From the human T2T-CHM13v2.0 reference genome, Homo sapiens, in NCBI RefSeq assembly GCF_009914755.1, contig NC_060938.1: a stretch of DNA of 64,000 nt. The stretch is one strand, 5' to 3'. The notes beneath the pieces were generated by a model. The model was not told the DNA's origin and ran no database searches. It worked only from the letters and a program-made list of their open reading frames with translations. Positions 1 to 16,256 of the stretch are shown in pieces. Numbering within the stretch: position 1 is the stretch's first letter; each line of letters opens with the position of its first letter. Both the position numbers and the translations under genes were made by a program.

Positions 1-704
1 GATTAAGAATTAGAACACTTATTGCAGTTCCACTTCTGTCACTACAAGAGCATTAGTTTCATTATTTGTAAACATTAGAGAGATAATACCTGTCCTGACA
101 GTTACTGAGGCTCAAATAAGAAACATAAAACTGTCTTTTAAAAGCTGAAAAATCCGGTACAAATACAAAGCATTATTATAATTACACCACAAAGCCTTAA
201 GAATCCCAGGGAGTAAAAGCTAGTAAGAAAGGAGAAGATACAGGACATGGAAGGGAAAGAGAGGACACTCAATTATGACAAGAATTATGTGGCAAGCCAT
301 CACTTTTCTGTCAACACTGCTTAAAGCTAATGGTAGATGCTGAAATCTCCAATTCACAGAAGAGATGCAAGAACAGGACAGCTATGTCTCCAGTAGTTCT
401 CTTTTTACTGATGTGGGTGGTAGGAGGTAGTGAGAAATCTCTTTCACACTACAGTAATACAAAATCAGGACAAATATATGAATGCAGAGTCACAGCTTTT
501 AAAGGTAACTCCCAGCACAGTAACTATCTTTCCTGTGCCTTCGTGTTTTCCTCTTAAAATATGCTAATTTCAGTTTTCCATTTAACAAATCCTATAAGCA
601 TTAGGACAGAAAAAAGAAAGGCCTTATTATTTTCTATAATAGATCACCTTGAACTATGTAGCTGGTAAATACACATAAGTTCCTCAATGCTTCTTAGAAA
701 TGAG

Positions 705-1293
705 TGCTCTGCCCTCAAATGTCCCATCACAATAGCAAGGAGTACTCAATCTTGAGCTTGCTCTTGCCCGTCCCATCCCAATAGCAAGGAGCACTCACTT
801 GAGCTTGCTCTTGCCCGTCCCATCCCAGTAGCAAGGAGCACTCACTTGAGCTTACTCTTGCACGTCCCATCACAATAGCAAGGAGCACTCGAGCTTACTC
901 TTGCACGTCCCATCACAATAGCAAGGAGCACTCACTTGAGCTTACTCTTGCACGTCCCATCACAGTAGCAAGGAGCACTCACTTGAGCTTGCTCTTGCCC
1001 TTTGTTTTGGAGGTACCAGATGTTTGCTCTGCCCTCAAATGTCCCATCCCAATAGCAAGGAGTACTCACTTGAGCTTACTCTTGCACGTCCCATCACAGT
1101 AGTAAGGAGCACTCACTTGAGCTTGCTCTTGCCCTTTGTTTTGGAGGTACCAGATGTTTGCTCTGCCCTCAAATGTACCATCCCAATAGCAAGGAGTACT
1201 CACTTGAGCTTACTCTTGCACGTCCCATCACAGTAGCAAGGAGTACTCACTTGAGCTTGCTCTTGCCCTTTGTTTTGGAGGCACCAGATGTTT
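705..1293. repeat. Compound minisatellite built from the CHD8 exon 4/intron 4 junction (10 units; 47-bp and 87-bp units forming a 134-bp higher-order repeat)
   Basis: Unit gtcccatcacaatagcaaggagcactcacttgagcttactcttgcac (47 bp) recurs; intact ACTCACTTGAG cores start at 793, 840, 930, 977, 1064, 1111, 1198 and 1245; degenerate cores at ~745 and ~887. Confidence 0.97.
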
Positions 1294-1636
1294 TACTCTT
1301 CTTTGGCTTCTCCTCTTTCAGCCTCTCCCCAGCACTCTTCTTCCTGCGTTTCTTCTCGCCTTCCTCCTCTGGCCGAACGCTGGGCAACTCGTCCTCATTT
1401 AAGACTCGAGGTATGTTCTGCTCACCGCGGGCACGGGCTCTCGCAATGGCCTCTGCTACAATCCGATTTGCTTTCTCTTGCTTCTTCTGGTGTTCCAATC
1501 TGCGGTTTTCCTCCATTCCTGTCTTTCCCCCCGAATGAGGAGCAGAGCTTGCTGGTGATGACAAAGCTGCCACTTCACTGGCACTCAGAACTTTAACTAC
1601 AGAGAGCCCAGAAGAGGCCCCTTGGGAAGAGCCAGC
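1251..1636 (-). CDS. CHD8: CHD8 third coding exon (exon 4 of the long transcript), AGSSQG...GASKTKGKSKL(N)
   Basis: Acceptor tttctatag|GCT at 1636, donor CTCAA|gtgagt at 1251; 386 nt, in frame with the previous exon; includes basic KKRRKK stretch. Confidence 0.97.
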
Positions 1637-2345
1637 CTATAGAAACAAAGATACTACAATTTCAACTTGCTTGTAGTTAAATGGCCTAAATAAAATCCAG
1701 CTCTGAAGCAGGGGGGCTAGAAACTAGTTCTTTAATCCCTCAAGAATCAAGCTCAGACTAAATCTTATTGAACCTACACCTACTTTTTAAAATGTATTCT
1801 TTTGGTGGGAAAGGGGTGAGAAAAACCAAGAATTCTGCCAAAATAAACTTTAGTATCTTTTTGCTATGCTTCCATTAATATACATCTCCATTACCTCAGA
1901 AAAATTACAACTAATATACCCAATATTGGTCTCTGGCCTAACGGTAAAAAAATTCAAATTCTACTCTTGGCCTACCTTTTATCTGCCTGGGCGGGGAGAG
2001 GGGAGGACTGATCACTTATTTCTTCAAGTCATTTCTGAACTATCATTTAAAGGATATCACAAATCATTTTTATTTCACAATAATATTAGGAAAAGATTAT
2101 AAATAAAACAATTCAAAGATAAATACTAAATAATCTCATATCCCAAACCCAACAATCCCTCTCTAATCTTTTAATAATATAATTAAAATAAGGTTTCCAT
2201 GAATGAAAGAATTAAGTCTGCACCTCAGTTCAGAGATATAAATCTAGAATGGCCCCACATTCAAGAATAAGTGGTTGCTGAGGGCAACAGCAATGGACTA
2301 AGTATTTTTGTTTTCTTTCTTTTCCTTACTATGTAAGTCTCTCAC

Positions 2346-2717
2346 CTGTGGCTGCAGTACCACCTTGACTGGTACTGAAAGTCTTTGTCCTGGGCTTTGT
2401 CCTGGTCCCATTATCTGAGCCTGCTGTACAGAGGACAGAGTCACTGGCTGGGTGGAGGGTGGCTGCTGGGGCTGTGGCTGCGATGATGGTGGTTGTGGTA
2501 CAATCTGGATTTTTTGCTGTGGCTGCTGCACCTGCAGCTGGATAGTTACTACCTTGGCAGGCTGCCCTTGGGCATTCTTGGCTTGAGTCAGGGCTGCCAG
2601 CTGGTTGCCCTGTAACACTATCTTGCCTGGTAGACTCCCTAGCACAACATGCCGATGTCCTTGGGGACCTCCAGACTGTGGCTGCTGGAGGACCAGGGTG
2701 ATGCGTTTCGATTCACC
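2346..2717 (-). CDS. CHD8: CHD8 second coding exon (exon 3), GESKRITLV...VVLQPQ, Q/P-rich
   Basis: Acceptor cactttag|GGT at 2717, donor CAG|gtgaga at 2346; 372 nt, phase 0/0. Confidence 0.97.
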
Positions 2718-2891
2718 CTAAAGTGAAGAAAGGAAATTGCAAGAGTACAACATTAAAGAATGGTATACTCTGAAATATTTACACCAGTTTTCTTCATGCT
2801 AGAATCATAAAAACTACAGGTCAGAAGACACAGTACAACTCACTTTGTTCATCATCCTATCTGTCTTGATGCAATCTTTTTTGTTATTTTT

Positions 2892-3188
2892 AGACAGGGT
2901 CTCGCTGTATTGCCCAGGCTAGAGTGCAGTGGCTATTCACAGGCACAACACTACTGCTGATCAGCAAGGGAGTGCTGCCCTGCTCCGTTTCCAACCTGGG
3001 CCAATTCATCCCTCCTTAGGCAACCTGGTGGTCCCTTGCTCCTGGGAGGTCACCATATTGATGTCAAACTTAGTGCAGACACCTGATTGGCATAGCACAC
3101 CACAGCCCAGAACTCCTAGGCTCAAGTGATCCTCCCGCTTCAGCCTCCTGAGTAGCTGGTACTATAGGTGCATGCCACCATGCCCAGC
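2892..3188 (-). pseudogene. Full-length 7SL (SRP RNA) retrocopy including the S domain
   Basis: Reverse complement follows 7SL including non-Alu S-domain text (catcaatatggtgacctcc...accaccaggttgcctaaggaggg...ggaaacggagcagg...gtgaatagccactgcactc); A-rich tail at 2877-2891. Confidence 0.93.
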
Positions 3189-3300
3189 TAATTTTTATTT
3201 TGCTTTTTTGTAGAGATGAGGTCTATGTTTCCCAGGCTGGTCTCGAACTCCTGGCCTCAAGCGATCCTCTGGCCTCAGCCTCCCAAAGTGCTGGGACTAT
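3189..3300 (-). mobile_element. 5'-truncated Alu left arm plus A-rich linker fused to the 7SL copy
   Basis: cccagcactttgggaggctgaggcc...gagttcgagaccagcctggg...tctctacaaaaa on the minus strand. Confidence 0.85.
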
Positions 3301-14992: not shown

Positions 14993-16010
<1,018 letters not shown>

Positions 16011-16256
16011 AGGAGAAAAGAGAAAGGGGAGGAGAGGAGAGGGGAGGAGAGGAGAGGGGAGGAGAGGAGAGGGGAGGGGAGGGGAGGAGAGGAGAGGAGA
16101 GGAGAAGGGAGGAGAGGGGAAGAGACGGGAGGAGAGGGGAGGAGAGGGGAGGAGAGGGGAGGAGAGGGGAGGAGAGGGGAGGAGAGGGGAGGAGAGGGGA
16201 GGAGAGGGGAGGAGAGGGGAGGGGAGAAAGGAAAGAAAGGAAGAAAGAAAGAGAAC
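16011..16256. repeat. Polypurine tract (GGAGA/GGGGA)n, including perfect GGAGAGGGGA decamers
   Basis: ~245 nt with a single pyrimidine, in the position of an Alu tail. Confidence 0.97.

What the first reader, a model, noticed from the sequence alone, without database searches (positions are those of the whole stretch)
705..1293. Tandem array of duplicated 5' splice sites: the CHD8 exon 4/intron 4 junction is itself amplified, and every extra donor lies behind a stop codon
Seen: the repeat unit is not random intron DNA but exon end + donor + start of intron. CTCAA|GTGAGT occurs at the real boundary (last exonic base 1251) and again, identical from -5 to +6, at 1204, 1117, 1070, 983, 936, 846 and 799; two more copies are broken. 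Reading past the real donor gives AAG TGA at once, so any downstream copy adds a premature stop at codon 535. Established: a PTC this far upstream of later junctions triggers NMD, and CHD8 is haploinsufficient (autism/overgrowth). Inference: the array may be a built-in poison-splicing rheostat or U1 snRNP decoy whose copy number tunes CHD8 dosage; alternatively it is a natural test of how the spliceosome picks one of eight identical donors. I do not know whether it has been described.
Basis: partly seen in the sequence, partly recalled or inferred. Interest (0 to 1): 0.85.

Follow-up and report, generated by a model that had tools for sequence, protein, structure and literature searches.

The report
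CHD8 splice-donor minisatellite in intron 4
The start of CHD8 intron 4 is a variable-length tandem repeat made from copies of the exon 4/intron 4 junction, so seven extra perfect splice donors sit behind the real one; this is real and curious, but a similar repeat is already known in ABCA7 and nothing yet shows that it tunes CHD8 dosage.

Summary
On the minus strand, CTCAA|GTGAGT occurs exactly 8 times (chance 0.07), at the annotated exon 4 donor (1251) and at 1204, 1117, 1070, 983, 936, 846 and 799. Two more copies are broken by indels. The array (721-1293; 47-nt and 134-nt periods) starts 43 nt inside exon 4. It fills the first third of an intron I infer to be 1,532 nt. Read-through gives AAG TGA, a stop at codon 535.

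It is a minisatellite born from duplication of the exon-end/intron-start junction, and it is found nowhere else in this genome. It is already catalogued, without comment, as a length-polymorphic VNTR: hg38 chr14:21427243-21427911, 668 bp in the reference, mean 617.5, SD 32.5 in 17 assemblies, flagged "not an eQTL" in GTEx (Lu 2021 supplement).

The ABCA7 intron 18 VNTR is a direct precedent. It includes the exon's donor, and the next unit's donor is used in about 2% of transcripts, which are NMD-sensitive, independently of length.

Most likely the extra donors are tolerated bystanders that give at most low-level NMD isoforms. A copy-number rheostat is unsupported but not excluded. It is a new member of a known kind, of moderate interest.

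The parts
1251..1636 (-). CHD8 exon 4 (386 nt); its last 43 nt (1251-1293) are also the first part of the first repeat unit
   Evidence: Annotation supplied with the finding. The frame was checked by translation, ending ...KTSGASKTKGKSKL + AA. TRF's period-134 array reaches 1293.
721..1293 (-). Minisatellite of 10 units, read 5'->3' on the minus strand: 47, 87, 47, 87, 47, 47, 43, 47, 47 nt, then a terminal unit that runs into unique intron. The first two 47+87 pairs form 134-nt super-units
   Evidence: The first two 134-nt units differ at 4 of 134 positions. The unit has no other copy in the 3.1-Gb assembly: all 5 matches lie at this locus.
1245..1255 (-). Authentic exon 4 donor CTCAA|GTGAGT (last exonic base 1251); -9 = C, +7 = A
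   Evidence: annotation.
1198..1208 (-). Extra donor 1 (exon +47 nt); -9 = T, +7 = A
1111..1121 (-). Extra donor 2 (exon +134 nt). It carries a 43-nt copy of the exon tail, with an exact match for 31 nt upstream; +7 = G
1064..1074 (-). Extra donor 3 (exon +181 nt); -9 = T, +7 = A
977..987 (-). Extra donor 4 (exon +268 nt). It carries a 43-nt copy of the exon tail; +7 = G
930..940 (-). Extra donor 5 (exon +315 nt); -9 = T, +7 = G
862..904 (-). Unit 7 (43 nt): the donor is destroyed by a 4-nt deletion (GCTC----GAGTGC) within the imperfect 4-nt repeat AAGT/GAGT
840..850 (-). Extra donor 6 (exon +405 nt); -9 = T, +7 = G
793..803 (-). Extra donor 7 (exon +452 nt), the last intact copy; +7 = G
734..767 (-). 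Unit 10 (terminal): the donor is destroyed by a 2-nt insertion (CTCAAGATTGAGT). It is followed by the unique intron sequence ...GGGACATTTGAGGGCAGAGCACTCATTTC

Best explanation
This is a young minisatellite (VNTR) whose copy number varies between people. It arose by repeated tandem duplication of the CHD8 exon 4-end/intron 4-start junction. A 47-nt unit (16 nt of exon + 31 nt of intron) was duplicated first. A 134-nt unit (43 nt of exon + 91 nt of intron, already holding two donors) followed, and then more 47-mers.

The first unit overlaps the exon and everything downstream is intronic. Unequal exchange therefore changes only the intron length and the number of extra donors, never the coding sequence.

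The spliceosome uses the first donor. It alone abuts the purine-rich, enhancer-like body of exon 4 and closes the shortest exon. The whole array is then removed with the intron.

The extra donors are most likely tolerated bystanders. They may bind U1 and may be used at a low rate, most probably the nearest ones. That would give exon-extended transcripts with a stop at codon 535, which NMD clears. The loss would be small and not proportional to copy number, so the array is not a meaningful dosage controller.

Shown: the anatomy, the frame, uniqueness in the genome, length polymorphism, and the absence of an eQTL flag.
Inferred: the order of duplications, why the first donor is chosen, and low-level NMD isoforms.
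For: - Anatomy and frame.
- Unique locus: all 5 matches in the 3.1-Gb assembly lie here.
- Intron 4 is about 1,532 nt by my inference of exon 5: acceptor tttttcctttttag|CACC at window -282, open frame ...LNTITPVVGKKRKR.... The array is therefore about 35% of the intron.
- The eight donors are the only 8-of-9 matches to the U1 consensus between exon 4 and exon 5, so they are real competitors on paper.
- Only the real donor has the exon body upstream. The 100 nt upstream are 74% purine with 4 GAR-GAR hexamers, against 55-62% and 0-1 for the seven copies.
- Polymorphism and tolerance: Lu et al. 2021 supplementary file 1, row 8230, gives chr14:21427243-21427911, ref.len 668, asm.len 617.5, SD 32.5, n = 17, eqtl False. 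Their scan regressed k-mer-estimated VNTR length on GTEx expression, with 30,362 VNTRs within 100 kb of a gene tested and a gene-level FDR of 5%.
- Two coordinate anchors imply that the CHM13 array is about 92-94 bp, two 47-nt units, shorter than hg38's.
- Precedent: in ABCA7 the donor of the second VNTR unit is used in 2 +/- 1% of transcripts, rises with cycloheximide, and is unaffected by VNTR length.
- RefSeq lists no CHD8 transcript using an array donor (annotation given with the finding).
- CHD8 is absent from the 5 supplementary files searched for a catalogue of non-productive splicing events.
Against: - No RNA data could be examined, so 'low usage' is an inference.
- Recalled in vitro work with duplicated equal donors favours the donor nearest the acceptor. 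That would predict substantial use of the downstream copies.
- Short RNA-seq reads cannot tell the copies from the real donor unless they reach more than 8-43 nt upstream of the junction. Annotation and event catalogues may therefore systematically miss such isoforms.
- The eQTL scan used noisy short-read length estimates. The table's rpgg.acc for this locus is 0.194, and I did not read a definition of that column. The scan covered adult tissues, not developing brain, and it declares only the lead VNTR per gene.
- Both indels in the array hit the donor core (2 of 2). The -9/+7 variants tighten a donor-masking hairpin in 6 of 7 copies. Both could hint at selection against active extra donors, which would mean the donors are not entirely harmless.
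Confidence: 0.65

Rival explanations
1. Poison-splicing rheostat. A meaningful share of pre-mRNAs splice from one of the extra donors, acquire the codon-535 stop and are destroyed by NMD. More copies would then mean less CHD8, so the copy number or sequence of the array sets CHD8 dosage.
For: - There are seven extra donors with the same -8..+6 sequence as the real one.
- The stop follows immediately.
- Copy number varies among people.
- Dosage control by a downstream 5' splice site coupled to NMD is a proven mechanism elsewhere, in Hps1/Ptbp1.
- Short-read RNA-seq would under-detect these isoforms.
Against: - The locus is not an eVNTR in the GTEx scan. The only CHD8 eVNTR row found in Lu 2023 is a different repeat.
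- Common length variation in a strongly haploinsufficient gene argues that the effect per unit is small.
- In ABCA7 the use of the next-unit donor was about 2% and did not depend on length.
- No annotated isoform uses an array donor (annotation). CHD8 is absent from the supplements searched for a non-productive-splicing catalogue.
- A steady loss of transcripts with no regulator is a cost, not a regulatory device.
Confidence: 0.1
2. U1-recruiting intronic enhancer. U1 snRNPs bound to the downstream copies are not used for catalysis. They help to define the rather long (386 nt) exon 4 and to activate its own donor, as engineered 'exon-specific U1' RNAs do when they bind just downstream of a donor (recalled from the literature, not read here).
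For: - Eight 8-of-9 U1 matches lie within 452 nt downstream of the exon, and none comparable lies elsewhere in the intron.
- The 47-nt spacing should allow more than one U1 to bind (inference).
- The real donor has A rather than G at -1, so it is not a perfect site.
Against: - The array appears recent. Its first two 134-nt units differ at only 4 of 134 positions, so exon 4 presumably spliced well without it.
- Length varies among people with no expression signal.
- All units are predicted to fold the donor into a hairpin, which would hinder U1 binding.
- No binding data could be examined.
Confidence: 0.12
3. Actively silenced copies. The extra donors are kept off by local RNA structure. Each unit folds into a hairpin (outer stem GCAAGAG/CUCCUUGC, inner stem GCUC/GAGU, loop AAGU) that buries the donor. 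Only the real donor has a C.A mismatch at -9/+7 that loosens the hairpin, and its +7 A also pairs better with U1.
For: - The hairpin is predicted in all eight units.
- The -9/+7 pair is C/A only in the real donor. In the seven copies it is U-A (2), C-G (3) or U.G (2).
- MFE is -10.3 kcal/mol for the real donor, against -11.7 to -13.4 for 6 of 7 copies.
- With identical flanks, the single A-to-G change at +7 lowers the 61-nt fold from -17.7 to -20.8 kcal/mol.
- Masking of a 5' splice site by a stem-loop is an established mechanism, as at MAPT exon 10 (recalled).
Against: - One of the 7 copies (1117) has a weaker hairpin (-8.5) than the real donor.
- The differences are only 1.4-3.1 kcal/mol.
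- Window-based unpaired probabilities do not separate the real donor (0.0002) from the copies (0.0000-0.0005), and 4 of 15 control donors in the window are as low.
- Only 1 of 5 local folds reached z of -2 or lower against shuffles (z = -2.20); the real donor's fold gave z = -1.71.
- I noticed the -9/+7 pattern after the fact, and variants spread by duplication, so there are few independent events.
Confidence: 0.1
4. Assembly or annotation artefact: the array is a collapse or expansion error, or the exon boundary is misplaced.
For: None found. Tandem repeats are error-prone in general.
Against: - The window comes from a complete long-read assembly.
- The same locus is present in hg38 (668 bp) and in 17 further long-read assemblies with lengths near 617 +/- 33 bp.
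- The exon boundary at 1251 is the only one that keeps the CHD8 frame into the exon 5 I inferred.
Confidence: 0.01

Closest known systems
ABCA7 intron 18 VNTR (De Roeck et al. 2018, PMC5954066; I read passages and section 21)
   Same: - It is a minisatellite that starts at the exon/intron junction and includes the exon's canonical donor, so every unit begins with a donor-like GT.
- The donor of the next unit is used and gives a PTC, NMD-sensitive isoform.
- Its length is polymorphic in the population.
   Different: - ABCA7's unit is 25 nt, C-rich and purely intronic (the array starts at the GT). The CHD8 unit is 47/134 nt and includes 16-43 nt of coding exon, so the copies mimic the exon side of the junction too.
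- ABCA7 alleles span 0.3-10 kb, and length affects exon 19 skipping, expression and Alzheimer risk. The CHD8 array varies by about one or two units, and no effect is known.
- Donor use has been measured for ABCA7 and not for CHD8.
Alternative downstream 5' splice site coupled to NMD as dosage control, e.g. Hps1 exon 18 under Ptbp1 (Hamid & Makeyev 2014, PMC4222953; passages read)
   Same: An upstream donor gives the productive mRNA, and a downstream donor gives an exon extension with a PTC that NMD removes.
   Different: - Hps1 has two different donors (weak upstream, strong downstream) and a defined regulator binding between them.
- CHD8 has eight identical donors, no known regulator and no demonstrated use.
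Internal tandem duplications spanning splice signals: intron gain or extension by tandem genomic duplication (review PMC3443670, passages read; Gao & Lynch 2009 and Hellsten et al. 2011 known to me only from its reference list and from recall)
   Same: A tandem duplication copies a splice signal, and the outermost pair of sites is used. The duplicated exonic segment then becomes intronic and the mRNA is unchanged.
   Different: Those cases are single duplications that create or lengthen an intron. Here the process was repeated about nine times and remains polymorphic.
Laboratory constructs with duplicated 5' splice sites (Reed & Maniatis 1986; Eperon et al. 1993; Hicks et al. 2010; the Roca, Krainer & Eperon 2013 review). 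All are recalled; none could be read (one search failed)
   Same: Identical donors with identical local context compete for one acceptor.
   Different: - As I recall them, those experiments favour the donor nearest the acceptor when both are strong. In CHD8 the annotated product uses the farthest one.
- The natural case has a 386-nt internal exon and a 1.5-kb intron, so exon definition and exonic enhancers probably dominate.

Membership tests
Minisatellite / VNTR | Head-to-tail tandem units of 10 nt or more | tested here: met
   TRF gives period 47 x 12 and period 134 x 3.9. A manual parse gives 10 units.
Minisatellite / VNTR | Copy number varies among individuals | tested here: met
   Lu 2021 supplementary row 8230 gives ref.len 668 against a mean of 617.5, SD 32.5, in 17 assemblies. 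The CHM13 array is 573 nt (721-1293). Coordinate anchors imply it is about 92-94 bp shorter than hg38.
Junction VNTR that duplicates the exon's donor (ABCA7 intron 18 type) | The array starts at or before the canonical donor, and the units carry donor motifs | tested here: met
   The array reaches 43 nt into exon 4. Eight of 10 units carry an intact CTCAA|GTGAGT.
Junction VNTR that duplicates the exon's donor (ABCA7 intron 18 type) | Donors of downstream units are used in RNA and give PTC isoforms | not testable with these tools
   No RNA-seq is available. The PTC consequence itself is verified. No annotated isoform uses an array donor (annotation), and CHD8 is absent from the Lim 2020 supplements searched.
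Junction VNTR that duplicates the exon's donor (ABCA7 intron 18 type) | Repeat length affects splicing or expression of the host gene | tested here: inconclusive
   Only published tables were available. The locus is eqtl False in Lu 2021. It does not appear as a CHD8 eVNTR in the Lu 2023 files that could be searched, with 2 files not searched. No sQTL data were found (10 files searched, 1 not searched).
AS-NMD regulatory switch (alternative 5' splice site) | The alternative site introduces a PTC more than 50-55 nt upstream of the last exon junction | tested here: met
   The stop falls at codon 535, and 34 further exons follow (annotation).
AS-NMD regulatory switch (alternative 5' splice site) | Regulated, measurable use of the unproductive site; conservation of the element | not testable with these tools
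   No transcript data and no other vertebrate genomes were available. The low divergence between units (4 of 134) suggests a recent origin rather than a conserved device.
U1 telescripting element / U1 decoy | Cryptic polyadenylation signals nearby that U1 binding would suppress | tested here: not met
   There is no AATAAA or ATTAAA anywhere from exon 4 through exon 5 (window 1660 to -420).
Stem-loop-masked 5' splice site (MAPT exon 10 type) | The donor is buried in a stable local hairpin whose strength sets its use | tested here: inconclusive
   A hairpin is predicted at all eight donors. The real donor's hairpin is weaker than those of 6 of 7 copies and stronger than 1. Unpaired probabilities do not discriminate. 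Fold z-scores are modest.

The most novel reading that the evidence does not exclude
The array is a hidden, allele-dependent leak in CHD8 expression. In some cell states, such as developing neurons with different SR/hnRNP levels or weaker NMD, a noticeable share of transcripts splice from the extra donors.

The size of the leak would depend on how many intact, weakly masked donors an allele carries: unit number, the A/G variant at +7, and the -9/+7 hairpin pair. Common VNTR alleles would then modulate CHD8 dosage and the penetrance of CHD8-related autism or macrocephaly.

This would have escaped notice because short junction reads from the copies are indistinguishable from the canonical junction.
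Probability: 0.07. Interest if true: 0.8.

Novelty: new member of a known kind. Interest (0 to 1): 0.4.

Why it matters
CHD8 is one of the most dosage-sensitive autism genes. If this common repeat affected productive splicing it would be a candidate modifier, and masking the extra donors with antisense oligonucleotides could be a way to raise CHD8 output.

Whatever its function, the locus is a clean natural version of a classic splicing experiment. Eight donors identical from -8 to +6, two of them with 43 nt of identical exon context, compete for one acceptor, and the one farthest from the acceptor is the annotated one. That makes it a good test case for exon-definition models, for splice predictors and for long-read isoform calling.

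It is also a practical warning. Junction reads from the copies can be mis-assigned to the canonical junction, and variant calls around c.1601+1 to +450 lie in repeated sequence.

Tried and rejected
- **RNA accessibility:** I tested whether it explains the choice of the first donor. The probability that -3..+6 is unpaired is 0.0002 for the real donor, 0.0000-0.0005 for the copies, and 0.0000-0.14 for 15 control donors in the window (4 of 15 at or below 0.0005). It does not discriminate.
- **Pseudo-exons inside the array:** no AG in the stretch scanned (window 1300-600, which covers the array) has 60% or more pyrimidines in the preceding tract, so the array offers donors only.
- **Telescripting:** there is no AATAAA or ATTAAA between exon 4 and exon 5.
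- **Recombination-hotspot motif:** the CCNCCNTNNCCNC 13-mer (recalled motif) has 16 matches in the window and 0 in 700-1300.
- **Structured RNA families:** Rfam at gathering threshold on 1-3300 finds only the annotated 7SL pseudogene.
- **Other copies in the genome:** none.
- **Literature searches that found nothing on this array:**
  - CHD8 + VNTR returned 12 papers. From the listing (titles and abstract starts) none concerns this array; I opened one, and its only CHD8 hit was in the reference list.
  - CHD8 + tandem repeat + splice donor returned 6 papers. None looked relevant from the listing; I opened one and it was not relevant.
  - CHD8 + unproductive splicing returned 1 paper, unrelated judging by its listed title and abstract.
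  - CHD8 + c.1601 returned 0.
  - CHD8 + poison exon returned 2 papers, both reviews judging by the listing.
  - A broad VNTR/eQTL/sQTL search was badly designed and useless.
- **Supplements without the locus:**
  - Bakhtiari 2021 lists only a coding 15-mer VNTR for CHD8.
  - Eslami Rasekh 2021 has no CHD8.
  - Lim 2020 has no CHD8.
  - Hamanaka 2023 has no CHD8, with 1 file not searched.
  - The first two are short-read catalogues of repeats that fit within a read (as I recall their design), so a 570-670-bp array would be out of their scope.
- **Papers not held**: Gao & Lynch 2009; Roca, Krainer & Eperon 2013; Mukamel 2023; Garg 2022. My memory that Mukamel 2023 describes a splice-altering intronic CUL4A VNTR could not be verified, and I do not use it.
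- **Not possible here:** comparison with other primates or mammals, RNA-seq, SpliceAI/MaxEnt scoring, and population genotypes.
Full report

Yes. CHD8 lies on the minus strand, and its exon 4 ends at window position 1251 with ...GCAAGCTCAA|GTGAGTACTCC.

- The 11-mer CTCAAGTGAGT occurs exactly 8 times in the 64-kb window. All are on the minus strand between 793 and 1255. Shuffles give a mean of 0.07, and 0 of 100 reached 8.
- The last 'exonic' bases are 1251, 1204, 1117, 1070, 983, 936, 846 and 799.
- Two more units have lost the donor. Unit 7 has a 4-nt deletion (GCTC----GAGTGC). Unit 10 has a 2-nt insertion (CTCAAGATTGAGT).
- Tandem Repeats Finder reports period 47 x 12 (721-1266) and period 134 x 3.9 (770-1293, 89% matches).
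- The coding sequence up to the exon end is 1,601 nt. The exon therefore ends in phase 2, and reading on gives AAG TGA, a stop at codon 535.

**2. Anatomy.**

Cut at the recurring GCAAGAG, the array has ten units on the minus strand: 47, 87, 47, 87, 47, 47, 43, 47, 47 nt, then a terminal unit that runs into unique intron.

- The 47-mer is 16 nt of exon end plus 31 nt of intron start.
- The 87-mers are a 47-mer whose tail continues into older intron sequence (...ACATTTGAGGGCAGAGC) and then restarts with a 43-nt copy of the exon tail (AAACATCTGGTACCTCCAAAACAAAGG...).
- The array thus has two complete 134-nt super-units, each with two donors. A third begins at 1025 and diverges from about its position 119. 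A run of 47-mers follows.
- The first two 134-nt units differ at 4 of 134 positions.
- The first unit overlaps the real exon (1251-1293). Changes in copy number by unequal exchange therefore alter only the intron.
- One of the four differences lies in the exon-derived part (GCC to ACC, Ala to Thr). Gene conversion from a downstream unit could in principle write it into the exon; this is my inference.
- The unit has no other copy in the 3.1-Gb assembly: all 5 matches are at this locus.

From 10 kb fetched upstream of the window I infer exon 5. It has a strong acceptor (tttttcctttttag|C) at window -282, an open frame continuing ...KSKL-N-TITPVVGKKRKRNTSSDNSDVEVMPAQSPREDEESSIQ, and the donor CAG|GTAAAA at -396. 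On that inference intron 4 is 1,532 nt, and the array is its first ~530 nt.

**3. How good are the extra donors, and what sets the real one apart?**

- All eight are identical from -8 to +6. They match the U1 consensus at 8 of 9 positions. No other site from exon 4 to exon 5 does as well; the next best are two 7-of-9 sites, one of which is exon 5's own donor.
- They differ at +7. The real donor, 1204 and 1070 have A, a Watson-Crick partner for U1 (recalled U1 sequence). The other five have G.
- They also differ at -9 (C or T).
- The clearest contextual difference is upstream. The 100 nt before the real donor are 74% purine with four GAR-GAR hexamers, a crude proxy for SR-protein enhancers. The copies have 55-62% and 0-1.
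- The real donor also closes the shortest exon (386 nt, against 433-838 nt).
- The array offers no acceptor-like AG with a pyrimidine tract, and there is no polyadenylation hexamer from exon 4 to exon 5. Internal pseudo-exons and a telescripting role therefore find no support.

**4. A structural lead, with exceptions.**

Each unit is predicted to fold into a hairpin that holds the donor. The outer stem is GCAAGAG/CUCCUUGC, the inner stem is GCUC/GAGU, and the loop is AAGU, which is -2..+2 of the donor.

- Positions -9 and +7 face each other in this hairpin. They are C/A, a mismatch, only in the real donor and in broken unit 10. In the seven intact copies they are U-A (2), C-G (3) or U.G (2).
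- The 32-nt hairpin MFE is -10.3 kcal/mol for the real donor. For the copies, in order, it is -11.7, -8.5, -11.7, -13.4, -12.0, -12.0 and -13.4. Six of seven are tighter and one (1117) is looser.
- Against this, window-based unpaired probabilities do not separate real from copies, and 4 of 15 control donors elsewhere in the window are as low.
- Only 1 of 5 local folds reached z of -2 or lower (z = -2.20).
- The pattern was seen after the fact and rests on few independent mutations.

I therefore rank it as a testable lead, not a finding. The same holds for the fact that both indels in the array fall in the donor core. The 4-nt deletion lies in an AAGT/GAGT near-repeat, so slippage is a sufficient explanation.

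**5. What is already known.**

*The locus.* It is in the VNTR catalogue of Lu et al. 2021 (PMC8275641). I read supplementary file 1 part 1 for the headers, the matching rows, and main-text passages.

- Row 8230 gives chr14:21427243-21427911 (hg38), ref.len 668, asm.len 617.5, asm.len.std 32.5, asm.n 17, len.vst 0.0046 and eqtl False.
- Its 'most informative k-mer' is a one-indel variant of the unit seen here.
- That study regressed k-mer-estimated VNTR length on GTEx v8 expression. It tested 30,362 VNTRs within 100 kb of a gene and found 346 eVNTRs at a gene-level FDR of 5%.
- In Lu et al. 2023 the only CHD8 row in the files that could be searched is another repeat, chr14:21442635-21442834. 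I located it at window 16025-16226.
- Using that repeat and the gene's 3' end as anchors, CHM13 is about 92 bp shorter than hg38 somewhere between them. The array itself is 573 nt here against 668 in hg38. I infer that CHM13 has two fewer 47-nt units than hg38 and about one fewer than the average assembly.

Healthy people therefore differ in the number of extra donors.

*The phenomenon.* De Roeck et al. [quoted passage not shown]

- The donor of the next unit is used, retaining 25 nt and causing a frameshift and a PTC.
- That isoform is 2 +/- 1% of transcripts, rises with cycloheximide, and does not depend on VNTR length.
- Length instead affects exon 19 skipping.

Dosage control by a downstream 5' splice site coupled to NMD is documented for Hps1 (PMC4222953). 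Tandem duplication of splice signals with use of the outer sites is a recognised route to intron gain or extension (PMC3443670).

*What I did not find.* No paper discusses the CHD8 array's donors, CHD8 unproductive or poison splicing, or c.1601 splice variants. CHD8 is absent from the supplementary files I could search for the Lim 2020 catalogue of non-productive events and for the Hamanaka 2023 splicing-TR catalogue (one file not searched). These searches cover only the held open-access library.

**6. Most likely explanation.**

This is a recent minisatellite that is still variable in the population. It was made by repeated tandem duplication of the exon 4/intron 4 junction.

- The first donor is chosen because it alone is backed by the enhancer-rich exon and closes the shortest exon. 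The whole array then leaves with the intron.
- The extra donors are tolerated passengers. By analogy with ABCA7, I expect low-level use of the nearest copies, giving NMD substrates, without proportionality to copy number.
- The anatomy, frame, uniqueness, polymorphism and missing eQTL flag are shown. The choice mechanism and the low usage are inferred (confidence about 0.65).
- The rivals are a copy-number rheostat (0.10), a U1-recruiting enhancer of exon 4 definition (0.12), structure-based silencing of the copies (0.10, and compatible with the main reading), and an artefact (0.01).

**7. Caveats that keep the bold reading alive.**

- Recalled in vitro work with duplicated strong donors favours the donor nearest the acceptor, the opposite of what is annotated here.
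- NMD would hide the products.
- Short junction reads cannot distinguish the copies from the real donor unless they extend upstream far enough. That means more than 8 nt for the copies with T at -9 (1204, 1070, 936, 846), more than 18 nt for 799, and more than 31 nt exact (43 nt with one mismatch) for 1117 and 983. Annotation and event catalogues could therefore miss them.
- The eQTL scan used noisy length estimates in adult tissues.

No RNA data, primate genomes or splice predictors were available, so usage, age and conservation remain open.

**8. Verdict.**

- The locus is catalogued but its donor content appears undiscussed, while the kind is known from ABCA7. It is a new member of a known kind.
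- Interest is 0.4. It is a neat natural splicing experiment in a clinically important gene, with a small chance (about 7%) of being a real dosage modifier.

Noticed in passing
window 16025-16226: A second CHD8 VNTR lies in intron 1: the 10-mer AGGGGAGGAG x 20 (91% matches), inside a RefSeq-annotated enhancer span (15306-16224). It corresponds to hg38 chr14:21442635-21442834. Lu et al. 2023 list that repeat as associated with CHD8 expression in heart left ventricle (one row; effect column about -0.19).
   Followed up: partly
window 1282 (exon 4, 32 nt before its end) versus 1148 and 1014: The exon reads GGTGCC (Ala), but both intronic copies of the exon tail read GGTACC (Thr). Gene conversion from the array could write an Ala-to-Thr change into CHD8. 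Alternatively, the exon may have changed after the duplication. I could not check population or other-species data.
   Followed up: no
L006:9604-9718 (window -396 to -282): I inferred CHD8 exon 5 (115 nt) from the sequence alone. It encodes a basic KKRKR stretch that looks like a nuclear localisation signal (recalled motif type). Intron 4 is only 1,532 nt, a third of it the repeat.
   Followed up: partly
window 2892-3188, minus strand: A full-length match to the Metazoa_SRP model (172 bits, model positions 1-299 of 299) lies in CHD8 intron 2, between exons 2 and 3. It is the annotated RN7SL650P pseudogene.
   Followed up: no
whole window: The CCNCCNTNNCCNC 13-mer occurs 16 times, against 1.5 expected. 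Most hits are the CC[ACGT]CCTTGGCCTC form, which I take from recall to be the Alu-borne version. None lies in the array.
   Followed up: no
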